NCBI GenBank assembly: GCA_016198165.1
Contig: JACQJF010000045.1
Location: forward strand, 1 to 11,233
Origin: Candidatus Iainarchaeum sp.
GTDB taxonomy: Archaea; Iainarchaeota; Iainarchaeia; Iainarchaeales; GW2011-AR10
Length of the DNA stretch: 11,233 bases
Direction: 5' to 3'
Shown here in pieces: positions 1 through 11,233 of this stretch. Each line of letters opens with the position of its first letter. The first letter of the stretch is position 1. Made by a program: the position numbers and the translations under genes. Under the pieces are notes generated by a model. The model was not told the DNA's origin. It did not search any database and saw only the letters and a list, made by a program, of their open reading frames with translations.

Positions 1-1128
1 TTCAAAAAAAGTTTTTAAAAATTTGTAAGTTTTTAACCATCCAACTTGGTCTTCCAAAAAATATTTTTGGTTTGATTCTTCCATAAGGCATTCCTTGTAG
101 TTAAATAGGCAGCCATTAGCGGTTATTCCTATACATTCCTTTCCTATTCTTTTGGTTTCAAAAATGTCTGTCTCGTTTGCACCTATCAAAACAATGTCGG
201 CTGAGTATCCTGCAAACCGCTCAAAATATAGGTTTTCTTGTAAAAAATCAAATCCCGGGACACCTAAGTTTATTATTTCTGAAGTTTTTCCAATGTGGTT
301 TAATTTTTGTTCAAGAATGAATGGAATAGAGCTAGAGTTCAATACTCCATACCCAAAAACATAACTGTCTCCCATAAAGAGAACTCGCACTTTTTTTGGG
401 TCTTTTGCTTTAGTTATTTCTCTTGATTCCCGTATCCCAATGGAATTAGTTTTAACGGGGTATAATTTTTCTGAAAGTAAATGTGGTTTAAATAGATTGA
501 CATCCATAGAGAAATTTGTGTGTGGGTCATATTTGTACACGCATATAGGGAATAATGATAAATTCGGTTTTATTAGTGCGGCTGTATTGAAGTTTTCTGC
601 GATGACTCTTAATCCTTCTTGTGTTTTTTCGACATTGTTTGTTATAGTATTAACGTCCTGAACTTCAATTACCTTAAGGGCTCCTTTCATGTTATACGCT
701 TTATAATCCTTCTGGCAAAGTTCAAGCGCGAATTCAGTGTCAAGTAGGGCTTTGTTGTACTCTCCTATTATGTAATAGATTTTTGCTCTTTCGTCGTATA
801 CTTCTGCAACATTCGGGTTTTTGTTTATTGACTCAGTATATTTTACTGCAGCCAATTCAATGTTTGCTTCAGCGAAAGCTTTTTTTCCTTCTTCAAATAG
901 TTGTCTTGCTTTGTCCTGGGCTTGGTTGGAATTTATTTCTGATGGATTCCCAAAACTGCAACTAGAATTTGAGTATAAATATTGGTCTGCTGGGTGTATT
1001 TGTGGTTGGCTAGTGGTTTGTGTAATTGTAAAAAAAATTTCAACCAGAACGACTAGAATAATTAGTGTGCCAAGGAAAATAGTTGCATTCTGTGCTATAT
1101 CTTTTGCAGAATTTGTGCTGCTTTGCAT
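1..1128 (-). CDS. Partial CDS (N-terminal 376 codons; 3' end beyond left window edge). Membrane-anchored TPR-repeat protein with SGNH/GDSL-family hydrolase domain.
   Basis: Manual reverse-complement translation from ATG (revcomp of 1126-1128) gives an uninterrupted frame to position 1 with no stop: MQSSTNSAKDIAQNATIFLGTLIILVVLVEIFFTITQTTSQ... This includes a hydrophobic helix (IFLGTLIILVVLVEIFFTI), a TPR-like stretch (AEVYDERAKIYYIIGEYNKALLDTEFALELCQKDYKAYNMKGALK) and the SGNH block I motif RVLFMGDSYVFGYG (GDS encoded at 372-364). A conserved Gly block (INLGVPGFD) and a block-III-like LIGANETD follow. The ORF track omits it only because it lacks a stop inside the window. It overrides the short plus-strand ORFs 152-364, 440-661, 783-965 and 821-1147. 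Confidence 0.6.
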   Translation of the reverse strand, partial: MQSSTNSAKDIAQNATIFLGTLIILVVLVEIFFTITQTTSQPQIHPADQYLYSNSSCSFGNPSEINSNQAQDKARQLFEEGKKAFAEANIELAAVKYTESINKNPNVAEVYDERAKIYYIIGEYNKALLDTEFALELCQKDYKAYNMKGALKVIEVQDVNTITNNVEKTQEGLRVIAENFNTAALIKPNLSLFPICVYKYDPHTNFSMDVNLFKPHLLSEKLYPVKTNSIGIRESREITKAKDPKKVRVLFMGDSYVFGYGVLNSSSIPFILEQKLNHIGKTSEIINLGVPGFDFLQENLYFERFAGYSADIVLIGANETDIFETKRIGKECIGITANGCLFNYKECLMEESNQKYFLEDQVGWLKTYKFLKTFFE

Positions 1129-1134
1129 ATTTTT

Positions 1135-3477: not shown

Positions 3478-3550
3478 TTGAAACTATGGCAAACCCAGAA
3501 AAATAACTCCGTCAATTGTCCAGGGTTCATTGCACTCTTGTGCGGTGCCC

Positions 3551-3624
3551 CGCAAAGCTTCGCTTTGCGAGGTGCTAATCTGTCAAACCACGCCAAAATG
3601 CCGGAAAACTTTCATGGTTTGACA
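3551..3624. terminator. Convergent-gene spacer with two inverted repeats (possible bidirectional terminator or protein-binding site)
   Basis: Perfect 8-bp stem, 3-nt loop hairpin cgcaaagc-ttc-gctttgcg (3551-3569). A 10-bp perfect inverted repeat tgtcaaacca (3581-3590) / tggtttgaca (3615-3624) is separated by 24 nt. It lies between the stop of the SPFH gene (3477) and the stop of the minus-strand exonuclease gene (3639). Confidence 0.3.
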
Positions 3625-3638
3625 TAACCTCGAAATAA

Positions 3639-4214
3639 TCAAAGTTTTATTATTTTTCTATTTTTTAATTCAAAAAAACATTTTGCACAGGCAGAAACAT
3701 CACTTAAAGCATCGTGGGCATCATCAAAAGAAGTATTGAATAATTTGTGGTGCAGCTCCATAAGTGTTGGCCATTTATATCCATAAGGCCCAAGAATCTT
3801 GCAAAAATCCGTTGTTGAATGCATCGTGCATATTTTTGTTATTGAAAAAAGATTATTGTTAATTTTTGTTCTAATCAATTCAGAACCTACGACTTTTTCA
3901 TCAAAGTTCATATTATGTGCAACTAATAACTTTGAATTGCCGAGAATGGCAGAAAACTCACTTAGCGCTCTTTTTAGAGGAATGCCGAATTTATTTGCTT
4001 TTTCATTGGATATCCCATGAACTTTAACAGTATCTGGGGGAATTTTGAAATTCTCTGGTTTAATGATATAGCTTTGCTTTGACATCTCTTTACCGGAATT
4101 ATCACACTGCAACCACGCAATTTGAACTAATCGTGGCCAATTACTTAAATCTGAAACTGGCGCGCTCCAACTTTTTGGGAGTCCTGTGGTTTCTGTGTCA
4201 AAAAACAAATACAT
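3639..4214 (-). CDS. DEDDh-family 3'-5' exonuclease (DnaQ / DNA Pol III epsilon-like)
   Basis: 191 aa with Exo I MYLFFDTETTGLP, Exo II LLVAHNMNFDEKVV and Exo III FDDAHDALSDVSACAKCF (H-x4-D, hence DEDDh). It is visibly more AT-rich than the flanking genes. An SD-like ggtga sits in the 16-nt spacer to the upstream gene (revcomp of 4215-4230). Confidence 0.8.
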   Translation of the reverse strand: MYLFFDTETTGLPKSWSAPVSDLSNWPRLVQIAWLQCDNSGKEMSKQSYIIKPENFKIPPDTVKVHGISNEKANKFGIPLKRALSEFSAILGNSKLLVAHNMNFDEKVVGSELIRTKINNNLFSITKICTMHSTTDFCKILGPYGYKWPTLMELHHKLFNTSFDDAHDALSDVSACAKCFFELKNRKIIKL

Positions 4215-4230
4215 TTATTTCACCATATTT

Positions 4231-7162: not shown

Positions 7163-7930
7163 ATGGGGTTTTTCTCGTTGCTTAAGCTTGTTCTAACTGA
7201 CGCTGTTTTGTTCAAGAAAAGCGTGGATGCCGTGGCGGTCCTGATTGACGAGGCCGAGTTTGTCGTCAAGGACGAAGGGGTTTTCCTCAAGGCAACCGAC
7301 CCAAGCCAGATTTCAATGGTTGACTTTTCCCTTCCCAAAAGCGCGTTTGCGGAATTCGAGGCGGGGCCCGAGCACAGGCTTGGCGTGGACCTGGATTACC
7401 TTAGCCAGGTTTTGTCGCGCGCAAAAGCGGGCGATTCGCTTGAGCTTGAGGTTGACGACTCGAATTCAAAGCTGTTCGTGTTTTTTTCCGGAAAAGCCAA
7501 GAGAAAATTCGAGGTCCCATTGATTGACGTGAATTCGCGCGACCTCCCGAACCCGAAAATAAGCTTTGACGCGGAGCTGCGCGTGAAAAGCGAGGCACTG
7601 CATGACGCCCTGAAGGACGCGTCCCTAATCAGCACGCACATAATCCTCGGTGTTGACGGGGAAGGCTTTTTCCTCGAGGCACGGTCAAGCAAGGGCTCGA
7701 TGAAAAACGAGATTCATTCAAGCCAAAAAGAATTCCTGCTGGAGTTCAAGGCGCGCGAGAACGTGCGCTCAATGTTCCCGCTTGATTACCTGTCTGACAT
7801 CGTGAAATCCGCGCCAAGCGACAGCGAGATTTCCCTGCGCTTAAAGTCAAACGCCCCTGCAGAAATAGCGTACACTGTGGGTGGTGCAAGCTTGCGGTAT
7901 TTCCTTGCGCCAAGAATAGAGTCAGAGTAA
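7163..7930 (+). CDS. pcn: DNA polymerase sliding clamp PCNA
   Basis: 255 aa with typical archaeal PCNA features: LIDEAEFVVKDEGVFLKATDPSQISMVDFSLPKSAF, KRKFEVPLIDV, C-terminal RYFLAPRIESE (compare archaeal ...IFLLAPRVEE). The start could alternatively be the in-frame TTG at 7178, 10 nt after SD-like ggatgggg. Confidence 0.9.
   Translation: MGFFSLLKLVLTDAVLFKKSVDAVAVLIDEAEFVVKDEGVFLKATDPSQISMVDFSLPKSAFAEFEAGPEHRLGVDLDYLSQVLSRAKAGDSLELEVDDSNSKLFVFFSGKAKRKFEVPLIDVNSRDLPNPKISFDAELRVKSEALHDALKDASLISTHIILGVDGEGFFLEARSSKGSMKNEIHSSQKEFLLEFKARENVRSMFPLDYLSDIVKSAPSDSEISLRLKSNAPAEIAYTVGGASLRYFLAPRIESE
7898..7926 (+). repeat. Left copy of the 29-bp perfect direct repeat tatttccttgcgccaagaatagagtcaga (candidate attL); it is the native 3' end of pcna
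   Basis: Identical to 10233-10261. It encodes the ...YFLAPRIES-E codons of PCNA and is followed by gtaa (stop at 7928-7930). Confidence 0.85.
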
Positions 7931-7946
7931 AATGGAGATTTAAAAA

Positions 7947-8579
7947 ATGAAGCTTCCAAAAGTCGCCTTTCTTATCCCTGCGTATGGTTCTGTGAAAATC
8001 CCTGCTTACGACTCAATGATTAATTTTGTTGCAAATACAGAGAGATTTTGCCAAGCTGCTTTCATTGTAAAATCCTCTTGTTATGTTCATGAAAACCGCA
8101 ACCGCCTTGTCAAAGCCTTTTTGGAGGCTGACGAAAAACTTGATTTTGACTATGCTTTCTGGATTGACTCTGACATGGTTTTTACTTGGCAACATGTAAA
8201 ACAATTGTTGAAATTCATGGAGGAGAAAAATGTTGATATTGCAACGGGTGTTTACTACTCTTTTGTCCAAGGCGGAAAACCCGGACCGGTAATTGTAAGA
8301 AAGAAAGAAGATGATTCCTGGGAAACCATGCCTGCTTCTGAACTAAAAGAGCCAATGATAGTTGATGGTGCAGGGTTTGGTTTTGTAGTGATGAAAACAA
8401 AAATCTTGAAAGAAATGGCTCAAAAAAAAGGAGAACACGTATTCGGGTTCAGGTTTTCAAAAAAAGGCAAAATGATTGGAGAAGACAACTTATTTTTTGA
8501 GGAAGCAAAACAACTTGGCTATGGTCTTTGGGTGGTCCCACAAGTCCGTGTCGGGCACGCAAAGACCGTAGTAGTATAA
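7947..8579 (+). CDS. GT-A-fold glycosyltransferase-like protein (GT2-like, DxD motif)
   Basis: 210 aa. N-terminal VAFLIPAYGS (GT-A beta1 / IP-Y motif), DxD-like FWIDSDMVF, later GEDNLFFEEAKQLG ... VGHA (GT2-like ED...H arrangement). SD ggagat 9-14 nt upstream of the ATG. It starts 16 nt after the pcna stop. AT-rich. Confidence 0.45.
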   Translation: MKLPKVAFLIPAYGSVKIPAYDSMINFVANTERFCQAAFIVKSSCYVHENRNRLVKAFLEADEKLDFDYAFWIDSDMVFTWQHVKQLLKFMEEKNVDIATGVYYSFVQGGKPGPVIVRKKEDDSWETMPASELKEPMIVDGAGFGFVVMKTKILKEMAQKKGEHVFGFRFSKKGKMIGEDNLFFEEAKQLGYGLWVVPQVRVGHAKTVVV

Positions 8580-8654
8580 CTCCTTTTTTTGTCAGGTTTT
8601 TAAATTCTTCCACAATACCATTACTAACTTTCCTAAATTTTTGGGGGTGTAATA

Positions 8655-10163
8655 ATGGAAAGAAAAAAATCTATAGCAATAGCCTGGTTATTTGCAGTTC
8701 TAATTCTGGCTTTTTCGATTTTTGTGACTGCAACAAACAATACGACAAACATAGTTGAAATGATTTTTGACTCAATAGAATTGCAAGAAAATTCTTCAGT
8801 TGTAAATAACTCTCATACAAAACTAGTAGCTGACTTGTTTACGGATTCTGATGGATATGCAGGTACAATAAACACTGGTAGTACAACTAGCTATTTTAGA
8901 ACTGCAAGTGAGCAATATGAATCAAAACCAAGTCAAACGAACACTATAAGTGCTGTTAGTGAACCAGGATTTGAAACAGTAACTGGTTGGACTGCCACCA
9001 CTTCCGGAACTGCAAACCCGCAGTCTAATCAAAGTTCGACACAAGCCCACTCTGGAACTTATAGCTGGAGGCTTTATCAAAATGGAACTGCAAGTGGAAT
9101 ATCAATTGCAAATGTTCTTAGAAGTGTTGACTTTACGAATGTTAATTACGTTCGATTCTGGTACAAAGTTACAACTTCTATAACTGGAAATGCAAATGTA
9201 AAAGCTTATGCTGGAAGTACTCTACTTTTCACATTCCCAACTTCAACTGGTGACTGGGCACAAACGGATTTTCTTGATGTGAGAGCCATTACCGGATCAC
9301 AAGACCTTAAATTTGAATTTTGGAGTGATTCAGGTCCAAGTGTCACAGGTGAAGTCTACATAGATGACATAACAGCTTACAGCTGGGAAGACGGCGACAT
9401 TATAACTAATTCTTTGTCTTCTGGAGAAACCAAAAAAATTAACCAAGCACAAGTTTATTTGCCAGATAAAACAATTCCAAGCGACTCGACATTAACAGTT
9501 GACGTGTCAAGTGATGGCGGAAGTACATACACGAATAATATCAGTCTTAATCAGATAGTGAATTTGACCTCTACTTTGGGCTCTGATTTGAGGTTAAGGT
9601 TCAATCTAAATCCAAATACGAGTAAAGACCAAACTCCGACACTGAAAAATTATTCAATAAAATACTTGACCACAGACCAGCTCGAAGGATTGTTATATGC
9701 AAATACCAGTGATTCGTCAGCCATTGCAAACACTACTACGGAAACAAATTTTGACACAAGTTACACCTTGCCTGCAGATGCTTTGACAACTGGCAAAGTC
9801 CTGAAAATAAAAGCGCAGGGAAAATACTCTTCAACTGCCACTCCGAACCTAAACCTTAGAATAAAATACGGTTCAACAACCCTGGTCCAGTCAGGAAGCG
9901 TCAATGTAGTTAATACCGCTTCAAACCAAGGGTGGTTAGTAGAAGGTACAATCATTGCCAGGACAACCGGAAGCACCGGAACCGCGATGGCAACGGGCTA
10001 TTTCCACAATGGAAGGAACAATAACATGCCATTGACAAATGCTGGGGCAACCACAATTGACACTACAACTGCAAATACACTGCAGGTTTCGGCTCAATGG
10101 AATACCGCAAGCCCAAGCAACACCATTACCTTGGAAAACATAACCATAGAAGCATTAAATTAA
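8655..10163 (+). CDS. Secreted Thr/Ser/Asn-rich surface protein with CBM4_9-like (galactose-binding-like jelly-roll) domain and many N-glycosylation sequons
   Basis: 502 aa. Signal peptide MERKKSIAIAWLFAVLILAFSIFVTA. CBM4_9-like pattern EPGFETVTGWTA...QAHSGTYSWRLYQNG...ANVLRSVDFTNVNYVRFWYKV (GFE..GW....AHSG.YS..L......Q.V......Y..W.K). About 13 N-x-S/T sequons (NNTT, NSS, NQS, NGT, NIS, NLT, NTS, NYS, NTT, NIT ...). No C-terminal TM. SD ggggtg at about -11 to -6. TATA-like 'tttttaaa' about 50 nt upstream. Confidence 0.6.
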   Translation: MERKKSIAIAWLFAVLILAFSIFVTATNNTTNIVEMIFDSIELQENSSVVNNSHTKLVADLFTDSDGYAGTINTGSTTSYFRTASEQYESKPSQTNTISAVSEPGFETVTGWTATTSGTANPQSNQSSTQAHSGTYSWRLYQNGTASGISIANVLRSVDFTNVNYVRFWYKVTTSITGNANVKAYAGSTLLFTFPTSTGDWAQTDFLDVRAITGSQDLKFEFWSDSGPSVTGEVYIDDITAYSWEDGDIITNSLSSGETKKINQAQVYLPDKTIPSDSTLTVDVSSDGGSTYTNNISLNQIVNLTSTLGSDLRLRFNLNPNTSKDQTPTLKNYSIKYLTTDQLEGLLYANTSDSSAIANTTTETNFDTSYTLPADALTTGKVLKIKAQGKYSSTATPNLNLRIKYGSTTLVQSGSVNVVNTASNQGWLVEGTIIARTTGSTGTAMATGYFHNGRNNNMPLTNAGATTIDTTTANTLQVSAQWNTASPSNTITLENITIEALN

Positions 10164-10173
10164 TCTCGAAGAA

Positions 10174-10222
10174 GTGGCTTTGGTTCAATAAGAGCTAAAG
10201 CCGCTTTACTTTTTTCTTTTTT
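10174..10222 (+). terminator. Hairpin + oligo-T terminator after the surface-protein gene
   Basis: gtggctttgg (10174-10183) pairs with ctaaagccgc (10195-10204) as a 10-bp stem including two G-U wobbles (valid only in the plus-strand transcript), with an 11-nt loop. It is followed by tttacttttttcttttttc (10205-10222). Confidence 0.45.
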
Positions 10223-10232
10223 CAATTAAAGT

Positions 10233-10261
10233 TATTTCCTTGCGCCAAGAATAGAGTCAGA
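10233..10261 (+). repeat. Right copy of the 29-bp perfect direct repeat (candidate attR); an orphan pcna 3'-end fragment
   Basis: tatttccttgcgccaagaatagagtcaga followed by ataa. In the pcna frame it reads Y-F-L-A-P-R-I-E-S-E-stop (gaa instead of gag for the last Glu), but there is an in-frame stop only 2 codons upstream, so it is not part of any ORF. Confidence 0.85.
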
Positions 10262-10351
10262 ATAAGGGCCTGTTGAAACCAAAAGTGCGGGGTATTGCAA
10301 GTTTTTTCCAATGCATATCTTTAAGTATACAAACACCAATATTGTTTACAG

Positions 10352-10672
10352 GTGGTCTCTTTGGTTGAAGTGTTGTCCATCCGGCCTTCAGAGGATCTTG
10401 AAAAAAAACTTAAGCTTCTGTCAAAAATGGAGGATTTAAGCAGGCCTTCCCTTGCAAGAAAGCTTTTGGCTGTAGGGGCAAAAGAAGAGTTGAAAAATAA
10501 GGCACTGGAATTGTACAAAGCAAAAAAAGTCTCTTTGGGCAAGGCCGCAGAAATCGCGGGCATCCCTGTTTTTGAAATGCACAATATTTTGAACACGAAT
10601 GAAATCCCTCTTAACATAAGCAAAAAGTCGGTTTTGTCGGATTTCAAGAGGGCTTTGGAGCTGAAAATGTGA
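10352..10672 (+). CDS. UPF0175-family antitoxin-like protein (partner of DUF3368 PIN toxin)
   Basis: 106 aa (GTG start; a TTG at 10361 is an alternative). The N-terminus is RHH-like (LSIRPSEDLEKKLKLLSKMEDLSRPSLARKLL). The C-terminus matches the UPF0175 consensus (ALELYKAKKVSLGKAAEIAGIPVFEMHNILNTNEIPL). SD-like aggtgg just upstream. Its stop overlaps the start of the next gene (GTGA). Confidence 0.65.
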   Translation: MVSLVEVLSIRPSEDLEKKLKLLSKMEDLSRPSLARKLLAVGAKEELKNKALELYKAKKVSLGKAAEIAGIPVFEMHNILNTNEIPLNISKKSVLSDFKRALELKM

Positions 10673-11166
10673 AAATTGTTCTTGATTCAACTCCACTTAT
10701 CTATTTGAACAGGGCCGGGCTTTCATGGGTTTTTGGCGAGTTTGAAACCTTTATCCCCCGGAGTGTTTTTGAAGAAGTTGTACTTAGGGGCAAAGAGTTT
10801 TACAAAAAAGATGCTTTGGTTGCCGAAAAGCTTGTAAATGACGGCAAAATTGTTGTGGAGTTTCCATCGGTTACTGTTGAGGCAAGGCGCATTTTGGCGG
10901 AATTGGGGGAAGGCGAACTCCAGGCAATAGCACTCGCAAAACAAAAGAATGCGGTTGCGATAATTGACGATGATGTTGCAAAAGGTTTTGGCGAAATTTT
11001 CGGGGTGGACGTTCACGGGACTTTTTTTTTGATTTCTTTGCTTGTCCACAACAAAAAACTGAGCAAGGCACAGGCAGTAAAAAAAATCCAGGAAATGATT
11101 AAACTTGGCTGGAGGGTAAGCGTTGATAAATATTTGGAATTTGTTGAGCTCATAACTAAGTTGTAA
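10669..11166 (+). CDS. DUF3368-family PIN-like nuclease (toxin-like)
   Basis: 165 aa with a GTG start overlapping the upstream stop by 4 nt (gtga), suggesting translational coupling. KIVLDSTPLIYLNRAGL (PIN N-terminal Asp) and GEGELQAIALAKQKNAVAIIDDDVAKGFGEIFGVDVHGTFFLISLLVHNKKL match the DUF3368 pattern (GEaeaIaLAke..a.liiDDk.Ar..A..lgl.v.GTlgiL). T-rich tail 11167-11200. Confidence 0.65.
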   Translation: MKIVLDSTPLIYLNRAGLSWVFGEFETFIPRSVFEEVVLRGKEFYKKDALVAEKLVNDGKIVVEFPSVTVEARRILAELGEGELQAIALAKQKNAVAIIDDDVAKGFGEIFGVDVHGTFFLISLLVHNKKLSKAQAVKKIQEMIKLGWRVSVDKYLEFVELITKL

Positions 11167-11233
11167 ATTTTTTTTTAATTTTCCATTTTTTCTATTTTTT
11201 CCACCCTCCGCCGGTGCCTTTCTTCTCCTGAAA

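What the first reader, a model, noticed from the sequence alone, without database searches (positions are those of the whole stretch)
7898..10261. 29-bp perfect direct repeat duplicating the pcna 3' end brackets a 2.3-kb foreign-looking insert: site-specific integration into PCNA's last nine codons
tatttccttgcgccaagaatagagtcaga occurs at 7898-7926 (the real C-terminus of pcna) and again at 10233-10261, where it encodes FLAPRIESE plus stop with a single synonymous gag-to-gaa change but has no upstream ORF. The 2306 bp between the copies is markedly AT-rich relative to pcna and carries cargo-type genes, a glycosyltransferase-like gene and a secreted sequon-rich CBM protein. A mobile element that integrates into the 3' end of a gene and carries a replacement gene end produces exactly this pattern. 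That the target is the replication clamp gene rather than a tRNA is unusual. No integrase lies between the repeats, so either this is a decayed remnant or the recombinase lies downstream beyond the window (tandem or composite island). Which copy is host- and which element-derived cannot be decided from the sequence.
Basis: partly seen in the sequence, partly recalled or inferred. Interest (0 to 1): 0.85.

Follow-up and report, generated by a model that had tools for sequence, protein, structure and literature searches.

The report
Foreign gene cassette docked in pcna's tail
A 2.3-kb piece of virus-related DNA has been recombined into the last ten codons of the sliding-clamp gene (pcna) of a tiny groundwater archaeon, bringing a spare copy of the gene's end so the clamp stays intact; this is a known style of integration, but at a new target and with no recombinase on board.

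Summary
A 29-nt exact direct repeat lies at 7898-7926 and 10233-10261. It extends to 33 nt with one mismatch and includes both stop codons. Together the copies bracket a low-GC insert of about 2.3 kb directly behind pcna in a Diapherotrites/Iainarchaeota MAG contig.

Independent k=31 assemblies from two sequencing runs contain both junctions. Relatives with 92%, 88% and 75% identical PCNA lack the insert and the duplicate. The toxin-antitoxin pair to the right of the orphan tail is syntenic and vertically inherited, so the right flank is host DNA.

Both cargo genes have viral affinities. One is a glycosyltransferase of a phage family, phrog_1574. The other is a secreted protein whose C-terminal domain resembles phage tail-fibre tips; it is not a demonstrable CBM.

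No recombinase lies in the insert. A crude motif scan of about 160 related pcna loci also found none.

I found the same signature elsewhere in the phylum: duplicated tails of pcna1, pcna2, a Band_7 gene and an Endo_dU gene. They flank toxin-antitoxin cassettes, or spacers of only 28-66 nt.

The closest known analogue is the integrase-less CIME/microCIME remnants at gene 3' ends in streptococci.

Integration at the pcna tail is well supported. Whether a site-specific recombinase or short-homology recombination did it remains open. This is a new member of a known kind, of moderate interest.

The parts
7163..7930 (+). pcna (PCNA1), the target gene. It is intact at 255 aa and ends ...YFLAPRIESE-stop.
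   Evidence: Pfam PCNA_N and PCNA_C. 489 homologues at E<=1e-20, the best 92%, 88% and 75% identical and all of full length. The tail YFLAPRI is invariant in 23 sequences.
7898..7930 (+). Left repeat copy (attL-like): the functional last 10 codons plus stop (GAG TAA) of pcna.
7931..10232 (+). Insert of 2302 bp with GC 0.388. It is absent from all other pcna loci examined.
   Evidence: Composition. tblastn found no GT or 502-aa homologue at E<=1e-4 in any of the roughly 160 other Iainarchaeota pcna loci. At E<=1e-5 in a single-locus search, one weak 40-residue GT-like hit (37%) lies on the opposite strand just after pcna in L003. Relatives L003, L004 and L005 have different genes behind pcna.
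7947..8579 (+). Cargo gene 1: a 210-aa GT2-like glycosyltransferase of a virus-associated family. It starts 16 nt after the pcna stop, behind a GGAG motif, which leaves no room for its own promoter.
   Evidence: Pfam Glycos_transf_2 1.6e-06. phrog_1574 1.7e-25 and phrog_34859 (glycosyltransferase, moron) 5.9e-14. 303 IMG/VR stretches encode relatives. A 47% homologue lies beside terminase genes in L093.
8655..10163 (+). Cargo gene 2: a 502-aa protein with an N-terminal hydrophobic helix, many NxS/T sequons and a conserved C-terminal beta-sandwich (residues 346-502) like phage receptor-binding tips.
   Evidence: No Pfam, PHROG or PDB sequence hit. Only the C-terminal third is conserved in 5 homologues, one of them fused to a pectate-lyase domain. 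AlphaFold pLDDT is about 80 for residues 346-502 only. BFVD gave 85 hits at E<=1e-3, mostly Caudovirales proteins including tail spike and depolymerase. PDB hits are TNF-like or jelly-roll lectins.
10164..10232 (+). Right inner end of the insert: the 3' untranslated stretch of cargo gene 2, with T-runs (cttttttctttttt) typical of archaeal terminators.
   Evidence: Read from the sequence. The terminator function is inferred.
10233..10265 (+). Right repeat copy (attR-like): an orphan pcna tail (GAA TAA) preceded in frame by a stop codon. It is identical to the pcna end of the 88% relative L003.
10352..11166 (+). Resident right flank: a UPF0175 antitoxin-like gene (10352/10361-10672) and a DUF3368/PIN-like gene (10669-11166). 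They are syntenic in the 75% relative. They are not part of the recent insert and may be an older acquisition.
   Evidence: Pfam. L004 and L094 carry the same pair behind pcna, at 74% and 63% identity, within the core-gene range of 55-76%.

Best explanation
A circular or circularisable piece of foreign, virus-related DNA recombined with the chromosome inside the last 29-33 bp of pcna. It carried a glycosyltransferase gene, a secreted gene for a receptor-binding-like protein, and a copy of the last ten codons of pcna.

A single crossover within the shared tail placed the incoming tail (GAG TAA) on the end of the host gene, so the clamp is unchanged. The original tail (GAA TAA) was pushed 2.3 kb downstream as an orphan in front of the old downstream neighbours, a UPF0175/DUF3368 toxin-antitoxin pair.

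The insert has no recombinase. It is therefore either the stripped-down remnant of a larger integrative element or provirus, or a cargo-only element moved by an integrase encoded elsewhere. That is the archaeal counterpart of a bacterial CIME.

Shown:
- the repeat and its significance
- an intact pcna
- foreign composition
- absence of the insert from relatives
- a resident right flank
- viral affinity of both cargo genes
- both junctions in independent assemblies
- recurrence of the same architecture at pcna1 and pcna2 tails in other genomes

Inferred:
- the circular intermediate
- which copy is host-derived
- that the enzyme is a site-specific (tyrosine-type) recombinase acting in trans or since lost
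For: - Repeat: exact 29-mer, 33 nt with 1 mismatch, 0 of 200 shuffles.
- Edges: the right edge of the repeat is exactly the stop codon in both copies, and the flanks diverge immediately.
- Composition: GC3 0.65 for pcna against 0.32-0.37 for the cargo.
- Relatives at 92%, 88% and 75% PCNA identity have no duplicate and carry different genes behind pcna. L003's pcna ends with the exact sequence of the orphan copy.
- The toxin-antitoxin flank is syntenic in L004 at core-like identity.
- The pcna1-pcna2 spacer is a phylum-wide variable slot.
- Cargo: phrog_1574 1.7e-25, 303 viral relatives, a homologue beside TerL; a tail-fibre-like C-terminal domain.
- Independent duplicated pcna1 or pcna2 tails: L042 (27 nt exact, 28 counting the first base of the stop codon; PIN+AbrB-like TA cassette of about 720 bp), L125 (18 nt exact by the scan, 19 on inspection; 28-nt spacer), L035 (46 nt, 41-nt spacer), L136 (40 nt, 66-nt spacer).
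- These events are enriched at pcna genes over neighbouring genes: 5 of 211 against 2 of 1338, Fisher p=7e-4, or 4e-3 without the window.
- Literature: 14 of 68 thaumarchaeal integrated elements sit in the 3'-distal part of protein genes and supply a new stop codon (PMC6563490). Integrase-less CIMEs (1.2-13 kb) and gene-less microCIMEs (130-220 bp) flanked by att sites occur at gene 3' ends in Streptococcus salivarius (PMC7563491). This matches the cargo-bearing and 'micro' forms seen here.
- Toxin-antitoxin pairs as sole surviving cargo fit decay of addictive modules last (inference).
Against: - No integrase lies in the insert. A crude tyrosine-recombinase motif search of 2 Mb of pcna loci found none. 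No full-length element with an integrase was seen at any of about 160 pcna tails.
- No orphan pcna tail (attP) turned up in IMG/VR, either with the exact 29-mer or with a degenerate YFLAPRIE pattern.
- No empty-site allele of this strain was found.
- Repeat lengths and left edges differ between events (-33, -28, -19 nt from the end of the stop codon).
- Band_7 and Endo_dU gene tails show the same signature with other cassettes. One dedicated pcna-specific recombinase therefore cannot explain everything.
- The 502-aa protein has a signal-like N-terminus, unlike a virion tail fibre.
Confidence: 0.5

Rival explanations
1. Homology-anchored capture without a dedicated recombinase. DNA from a related strain, or from a pcna-encoding virus or plasmid, already had this cassette directly behind its own pcna. 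It entered by a single crossover of a circularised fragment in the conserved tail. Alternatively, homologous pairing in pcna was combined with an illegitimate join 33 nt before the host stop codon. The two tails would then be orthologous ends from donor and recipient.
For: - Duplicated lengths vary from 18 to 59 nt, and up to about 110 nt counting a diverged arm.
- The same architecture occurs at unrelated genes with unrelated cassettes: Band_7 with HicAB in L137 and Endo_dU with two small genes in L083.
- In L137 the orphan tail continues leftwards as a diverged but in-frame orthologous C-terminus: SFSSKEMSNEEIEALMKKY... against SFSGKDMSQDELKALMKKY....
- In 6 of 7 events similarity stops exactly at the stop codon, and the stop codon itself often differs. 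That is expected for two alleles of a coding end.
- No integrase was found anywhere nearby.
- IMG/VR viruses encode full PCNAs ending in YFLAPRIE.
- Slot genes across the phylum are mostly ordinary metabolic or transport genes.
Against: - 29-33 bp is very short for RecA/RadA-type recombination.
- In the window, L042 and L083, identity starts abruptly with no further pcna-like sequence to the left of the orphan copy.
- Both cargo genes are virus-like, not strain-variable housekeeping genes.
- No donor arrangement (pcna followed by GT) without a duplicate was found among about 160 loci.
- Enrichment at pcna tails needs an extra assumption, such as exceptional conservation of the tail.
Confidence: 0.3
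2. Target-site duplication by a transposase-, casposase- or Cas1-like integrase. Staggered cuts about 30 nt apart at the end of pcna, followed by gap repair, would duplicate host sequence around the insert.
For: The duplications are long (18-46 nt), and some have short spacers of 28-66 nt (L125, L035, L136). This is reminiscent of repeat duplication during spacer or casposon integration. Casposons are known to target the 3' end of ef-2 (PMC6563490).
Against: - The insert has no terminal inverted repeats and no casposase, Cas1 or transposase gene.
- Copies differ at the stop codon, and in L137 they differ by many conservative codon changes. A fresh duplication should be identical.
- The right edge falls exactly on the stop codon in 6 of 7 cases, which random staggered cuts would not produce.
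- Lengths are too variable for one enzyme.
Confidence: 0.05
3. Assembly artefact: a free circular element or a second strain was threaded into the chromosome path through a shared k-mer.
For: This is a metagenome-assembled contig. The contig of the 88% relative breaks 212 nt after pcna, so the region is hard to assemble.
Against: The NCBI contig and three Logan contigs from two runs agree on both junctions. At k=31 (Logan's k, from my own knowledge) the two copies share no k-mer, because exact identity is only 29 nt. The hybrid 31-mers must therefore exist in reads. Independent genomes show the same architecture.
Confidence: 0.03

Closest known systems
CIMEs and microCIMEs (cis-mobilizable elements) of streptococci, at the 3' ends of fda, rpsI, rpmG and rplL (PMC7563491)
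   Same: Both are flanked by direct repeats that duplicate the 3' end of a conserved protein-coding gene. Both carry no integrase and no transfer genes. Cargo-bearing forms are a few kb and include glycosyltransferases, and gene-less 'micro' forms exist. Here the cargo-bearing forms are the window (2.3 kb) and L042 (0.72 kb), and the micro forms are L125, L035 and L136 (28-66-nt spacers).
   Different: Those are bacterial and derive from conjugative ICEs and IMEs whose tyrosine integrases are known. They are usually found in tandem with a functional element. Here the host is a DPANN archaeon, no cognate integrase or full-length element has been seen, and the micro spacers are shorter (28-66 nt against 130-220 bp).
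[quoted passage not shown]
   Same: Integration is into the end of a protein gene, the element supplies a replacement end and stop codon, and the att repeats are short. Cryptic elements there can be as small as 2.6 kb.
   Different: Those elements by definition encode an integrase (or a casposase). Their listed targets (ef-2, a Zn-finger protein, AsnC, dihydroxy-acid dehydratase and others) do not include pcna. No DPANN examples are listed.
Prophage-end moron modules: serotype-converting glycosyltransferase and tail-spike genes next to attP in temperate phages.
   Same: A glycosyltransferase and a receptor-binding-type gene lie directly next to the attachment site. Cryptic remnants of such prophages keep these genes between att sites. 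A homologue of the 502-aa protein lies next to a YfdI-type gene.
   Different: No head, tail, integrase or excisionase genes remain here. The 502-aa protein has a signal-like N-terminus. The host is archaeal.

Membership tests
Site-specific integrative element (tyrosine- or serine-recombinase type) | Direct repeats (attL and attR) that share an identical core and bound the element | tested here: met
   29 nt exact, 33 nt with 1 mismatch, 0 of 200 shuffles.
Site-specific integrative element (tyrosine- or serine-recombinase type) | Encodes its own integrase | tested here: not met
   The insert holds only two ORFs, GT2-like and a 502-aa secreted protein. Neither has a recombinase domain.
Site-specific integrative element (tyrosine- or serine-recombinase type) | An empty attB site exists in related genomes, with the flanks directly joined | tested here: inconclusive
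   Relatives lack the insert and the duplicate, and L003's pcna end equals the orphan copy. However, each relative carries different DNA behind pcna, and L004 has a 207-aa gene before the shared toxin-antitoxin pair. No empty allele of the same strain was found.
Site-specific integrative element (tyrosine- or serine-recombinase type) | A free or circular form with attP, or excision junctions | tested here: not met
   IMG/VR holds neither the 29-mer nor an orphan YFLAPRIE tail. Read data could not be examined.
CIME-like non-autonomous remnant | att-type repeats are retained while all recombination and transfer genes are lost | tested here: met
CIME-like non-autonomous remnant | Derived from, or mobilised by, a cognate integrase-bearing element that uses the same site | tested here: not met
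   No integrase-bearing element was seen at any of about 160 pcna tails. The motif search was crude, and flanks were limited to 10 kb.
Casposon or transposon with target-site duplication | Terminal inverted repeats and a transposase or casposase | tested here: not met
   The insert ends carry no inverted repeats, and no such gene is present.
SSV-type element (integrase gene split on integration) | int(N) and int(C) fragments read through the two att copies | tested here: not met
   The only ORF that reads through the left copy on the minus strand would be about 21 codons long in a circularised form (read).
Provirus (Caudoviricetes-like) remnant | Virus hallmark genes (capsid, terminase, portal) in the insert | tested here: not met
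   None are present. Only family-level viral affinity of the GT and of the C-terminal domain of the 502-aa protein was found.

The most novel reading that the evidence does not exclude
Iainarchaeota (DPANN) may run a cassette-docking system. Small integrase-less modules would be inserted into, and lost from, the invariant 3' ends of conserved genes, above all the two adjacent sliding-clamp genes. The modules are toxin-antitoxin pairs and surface-glycosylation or adhesin genes of viral origin. The recombinase would be encoded elsewhere, on the chromosome or on a virus. Each event would leave a spare gene tail. This would be an archaeal analogue of accretion-mobilisation or of an integron, with the replication clamp gene as the platform.
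Probability: 0.15. Interest if true: 0.7.

Novelty: new member of a known kind. Interest (0 to 1): 0.42.

Why it matters
DPANN archaea have tiny genomes. How they gain and lose genes for the cell surface and for defence or addiction modules is poorly known.

This locus gives a sequence-level footprint of gene acquisition in one of them. An essential, invariant gene end (the PIP-box-free C-terminus of PCNA) serves as the docking point, and the gene is repaired by a carried spare tail. Integration at protein-gene ends is known, so the principle is not new.

Three things are new. The replication clamp gene is the target. Both pcna paralogues are hit recurrently. And small toxin-antitoxin cassettes are bracketed by spare tails in several genomes.

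If a trans-acting recombinase is found, the 33-bp site would be a natural landing pad for genetic tools in an uncultivated phylum. The viral affinity of the cargo also suggests that virus-derived receptor-binding and glycosylation genes are recruited to the surface of an episymbiont.

Tried and rejected
1. More flank: the window is the complete NCBI contig. Logan contigs are shorter.
2. Further copies or an attP:
   - The exact 29-mer is not in IMG/VR.
   - A degenerate YFLAPRIE pattern in IMG/VR found only full viral PCNA genes or chance hits.
   - 80 GT-bearing viral contigs hold no pcna tail and no 502-aa homologue.
3. Empty-site allele: exact-protein look-ups of PCNA, UPF0175 and DUF3368 returned only occupied contigs or nothing.
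4. Integrase near pcna in relatives:
   - Eye inspection of 20 candidate ORFs found none.
   - Two regex motif scans over 2 Mb found none.
   - A Pfam scan of 63 slot-gene representatives returned ordinary metabolic and transport families. Only the top 25 of 83 families were shown, so a single integrase could have been missed.
5. Split SSV-type integrase across the att copies: rejected from the sequence.
6. tRNA or ncRNA target: no tRNA and no Rfam hit at E<=1.
7. Terminal inverted repeats or a target-site-duplication model: rejected (stop-codon-edge argument).
8. 'CBM' annotation: no sequence support, and the N-terminal model is unreliable.
9. L059's 14-15-nt repeat and L137's 14-mer pcna match: treated as possibly chance, since about 0.5 such hits are expected over all loci.
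10. Spacers of the micro-duplications were compared by eye for shared element ends. Only a 7-mer is shared between L035 and L136, which is not convincing.
A 29-mer search of those two collections was therefore not done.

Full report
**1. The observation**

The 29-mer TATTTCCTTGCGCCAAGAATAGAGTCAGA occurs at 7898-7926 and 10233-10261 and nowhere else in the window, even with three mismatches allowed. None of 200 dinucleotide-preserving shuffles produced a match.

The pair extends to 33 nt with one mismatch, 7898-7930 against 10233-10265. Both copies therefore end on TAA, and the only difference is GAG/GAA in the last sense codon.

The left copy closes a 255-aa ORF with PCNA_N and PCNA_C domains. 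The right copy is preceded in frame by a stop codon (F-F-N-stop-S-YFLAPRIESE-stop).

The sequences on either side of the two copies are unrelated. On the left they read ...gcttgcgg|repeat and ...caattaaagt|repeat. On the right they read repeat|aatggagatt and repeat|gggcctgttg.

**2. Is it an artefact?**

The window is a complete 11,233-bp NCBI contig of a 'Candidatus Diapherotrites' MAG.

Three contigs assembled independently by Logan from two runs reproduce the structure: both junctions (L001, SRR12113384), the left junction (L002, SRR12113383) and the right junction (L190, SRR12113383).

Logan assembles at k=31 (my own knowledge), and exact identity is only 29 nt. The two copies therefore share no k-mer, and the hybrid junction k-mers must be present in reads. 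I regard an artefact as unlikely.

**3. Composition**

| Region | GC | GC3 |
|---|---|---|
| Host genes | 0.46-0.53 | 0.50-0.65 |
| pcna | not given separately | 0.648 |
| Insert 7931-10232 | 0.388 | GT 0.365; 502-aa gene 0.316 |

Low GC continues to the end of the contig (0.406). That stretch encodes a UPF0175/DUF3368 (PIN-like) pair.

Two further low-GC patches lie outside the finding:
- 3478-4230, an RNase_T/DnaQ-like exonuclease absent from relatives.
- 1-1134, a TPR plus GDSL-hydrolase-like ORF that runs off the contig.

**4. Relatives**

PCNA homologues place the host in Iainarchaeota/Diapherotrites.

| Relative | PCNA identity | What follows pcna |
|---|---|---|
| L005 | 92% | A pilin-like Cys-rich secreted gene |
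| L003 | 88% | A distant GT-like gene on the opposite strand, then the contig end. Its pcna ends with exactly the orphan copy's sequence, ...GTCAGAATAA |
| L004 = L094 (519-kb and 743-kb contigs) | 75% | A 207-aa membrane protein, then the same UPF0175/DUF3368 pair, rpiB, a second pcna, priL and so on |

The toxin-antitoxin proteins are 74% and 63% identical between the window and L004. This is within the 55-76% range of the core genes. The right flank is therefore vertically inherited host DNA, and the insert is bounded on both sides by host sequence.

Neither cargo gene has a homologue at E<=1e-4 in any of the roughly 160 other pcna loci retrieved. None of the three relatives has a second pcna tail.

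No clean empty site was found, meaning a pcna stop followed at once by gggcctg....

**5. The slot**

Across 112 loci with enough flank, the conserved order is pcna1 - [0 to about 8 variable genes] - pcna2 - priL - priS - GINS - eIF2alpha. The variable genes are mostly ordinary metabolic or transport genes, plus toxin-antitoxin pairs and unique ORFs. The pcna1-pcna2 spacer is a phylum-wide site of gene turnover.

**6. Cargo**

The 210-aa protein is only weakly GT2 by Pfam (1.6e-06). It matches the viral family phrog_1574 over its full length (1.7e-25) and a phage 'moron' glycosyltransferase family. 303 IMG/VR stretches encode relatives. A 47% homologue lies in a contig with small and large terminase genes (L093). 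A 74% homologue lies among secreted-protein and PIN toxin-antitoxin genes (L088).

The 502-aa protein has an N-terminal hydrophobic helix and many sequons, and no Pfam, PHROG or PDB sequence match. Only its last 160 or so residues are conserved. They are shared with proteins in a tail-fibre-like gene string (L187) and with a pectate-lyase-domain protein next to a YfdI-type gene (L188).

AlphaFold models only residues 346-502 with confidence. That beta-sandwich matches the C-termini of many Caudovirales proteins, including tail spike and depolymerase entries, and TNF-like or jelly-roll lectins in the PDB. The 'CBM' label is unverified. Both cargo genes have viral affinities.

The GT starts 16 nt after the pcna stop behind a GGAG motif, so it is probably co-transcribed with pcna (inference).

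**7. The same signature elsewhere**

I searched 2.05 Mb of loci for direct repeats whose first copy lies on the stop codon of a long ORF. This gave the following events.

| Locus | Gene tail | Repeat | Between the copies |
|---|---|---|---|
| window | pcna1 | 33 nt, 1 mismatch | about 2.3 kb: GT and 502-aa gene |
| L042 | pcna1 | 27 nt exact (28 counting the first stop-codon base) | about 720 bp: PIN_3 toxin (1.5e-20) and a small AbrB-like partner |
| L125 | pcna1 | 18 nt exact by the scan, 19 on inspection | 28-nt spacer |
| L035 | pcna2 | 46 nt, 2 mismatches | 41-nt spacer |
| L136 | pcna2 | 40 nt, 5 mismatches | 66-nt spacer with two hairpins |
| L137 | Band_7 | 59 nt, 1 mismatch | HicB + HicA |
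| L083 | Endo_dU | 26 nt | two small minus-strand genes |

- In six of the seven events similarity ends exactly at the stop codon, and the stop codon often differs between copies.
- In L137 the orphan tail continues leftwards as a diverged, in-frame orthologous C-terminus.
- The pcna genes carry 5 of these events among about 211 genes, against 2 among about 1338 neighbouring genes. Fisher p is 7e-4, or 4e-3 with the window left out. pcna always sits at the centre of a locus, which gives some positional bias.

**8. Mechanism**

Three facts are best explained by incoming DNA that carried its own copy of the gene end and recombined within it. The spare tail ends on the stop codon. The copies differ at synonymous or stop positions. 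The flanks are unrelated. A target-site duplication made by staggered cuts explains these poorly.

It matches known archaeal elements that integrate into 3'-distal parts of protein genes and bring a new stop codon (PMC6563490).

The lack of any recombinase, together with cargo-bearing and gene-less 'micro' forms, closely parallels CIMEs and microCIMEs at gene 3' ends in Streptococcus salivarius (PMC7563491).

Toxin-antitoxin pairs as the sole cargo of three remnants would be expected if addictive modules are the last genes lost (inference).

**9. What remains open**

I found no integrase:
- none in the insert;
- none by eye in 20 candidate ORFs;
- none by a crude HxLRH...GH...Y motif scan of all loci.

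I found no free element with an orphan tail in IMG/VR.

Repeat length varies and several different target genes are involved. This fits at least as well with recombinase-independent capture, which could work in two ways. One is a single crossover of a circularised fragment through 20-110 bp of shared tail. The other is homology-facilitated illegitimate recombination.

The donor could be a related strain or a pcna-encoding virus. IMG/VR viruses do encode PCNAs that end in YFLAPRIE.

I put about 0.5 on a site-specific recombinase (in trans or lost), about 0.3 on homology-anchored capture, and small weights on a target-site-duplication mechanism and on artefact.

Which copy is host-derived cannot be proven. 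L003's identity with the orphan copy (GAA TAA) mildly favours the right copy as the original. L005 and L004 both end in GAG TGA, so their last sense codon matches the left copy (GAG).

**10. Verdict**

Integration at the pcna tail with a replacement end is well supported. Site-specificity, and a recombinase downstream, are not shown.

It is a new member of a known kind. pcna is a previously unlisted target and DPANN is a new host group. There is a modest chance that it reflects a broader cassette-docking habit at conserved gene tails in this phylum.

Noticed in passing
L042 10715-11499 (JAFCCW010000009.1, Ca. Iainarchaeum Meg19_1012_Bin_161): This is an independent duplicated pcna1 tail: 27 nt exact (28 counting the first stop-codon base), with stop TAG in the gene and TAA in the orphan copy. 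It brackets about 720 bp that hold only a PIN_3 toxin (10749-11183, minus strand) and a 90-aa partner (11158-11430, minus strand).
   Followed up: yes
L137 4580-5315: The tail of a Band_7/stomatin gene is duplicated (59 nt, 1 mismatch) around a HicB+HicA cassette. The orphan tail extends about 50 nt further left as a diverged, in-frame orthologous C-terminus.
   Followed up: partly
L083 1464-2270: The tail of an Endo_dU (PF01949) gene is duplicated (26 nt) around two small minus-strand genes of 125 aa and 91 aa. Their arrangement is toxin-antitoxin-like, and they have no Pfam hit.
   Followed up: partly
L125 10739-10803; L035 11494-11627; L136 2285-2433: These are 'micro' duplications of the pcna1 tail (L125) or the pcna2 tail (L035, L136). 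The copies are separated by only 28, 41 and 66 nt with no gene between them, and the L136 spacer has two hairpins. They may be scars of decayed insertions.
   Followed up: partly
window 3478-4230 (ORF 3639-4214, minus strand): A low-GC (0.34; GC3 0.28) RNase_T/DnaQ-like exonuclease gene matches phrog_192 (DNA polymerase exonuclease subunit, 6e-32). It sits between the convergent Band_7 and SpoIIM genes and is absent there in L003 and L004. No flanking repeat was seen. A GC-rich stretch that looks structured lies at 3500-3600.
   Followed up: partly
window 1-1134 (minus strand): An ORF of at least 378 aa runs off the contig start. It has TPR-like repeats and a GDSL/SGNH-hydrolase motif (FMGDSYVFGYG), and its GC is 0.34. 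L003 has the Lon protease gene at this position, so this is another foreign-looking patch.
   Followed up: no
window 7890-7911 vs 10091-10112: A 22-nt inverted match (86%, with 12 nt exact: GCTTGCGGTATT) links the left edge of the pcna tail repeat to a site inside the 502-aa gene. That site encodes the conserved QWNTAS motif, so the match is probably coincidental.
   Followed up: partly
L006/L096 12080-12285 (Ca. Iainarchaeum andersonii AR10, CP010424.1): A 67-nt exact direct repeat with a spacing of 139 nt and rich in hairpins starts at the stop codon of pcna2. Its nature is unknown; it could be a MITE-like element or an RNA.
   Followed up: no
L003 10756-10965: In the relative with 88% PCNA identity, a distant GT2-like gene lies on the opposite strand directly after pcna, and the contig ends there. 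The same slot therefore holds glycosylation genes in a sister lineage.
   Followed up: partly
L004 10001-19600 and about 90 other loci: Iainarchaeota keep a replisome gene cluster in the order pcna1 - (variable slot) - pcna2 - priL - priS - GINS. The two pcna paralogues are only about 34% identical.
   Followed up: partly
L174-L186 (IMG/VR): Several viral contigs, including giant-virus MAGs, encode full-length PCNAs that end in the same YFLAPRIE motif as the host gene. This is a possible source of homology for recombination with host pcna.
   Followed up: partly
L125 1932-2876: An rve/DDE-type transposase-like ORF (…GKPYHPRGRGKIEKYH…) lies upstream of pcna1. Downstream of pcna2 there is a run of about ten small unique plus-strand ORFs where priL would normally follow, which may be an inserted element.
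   Followed up: no
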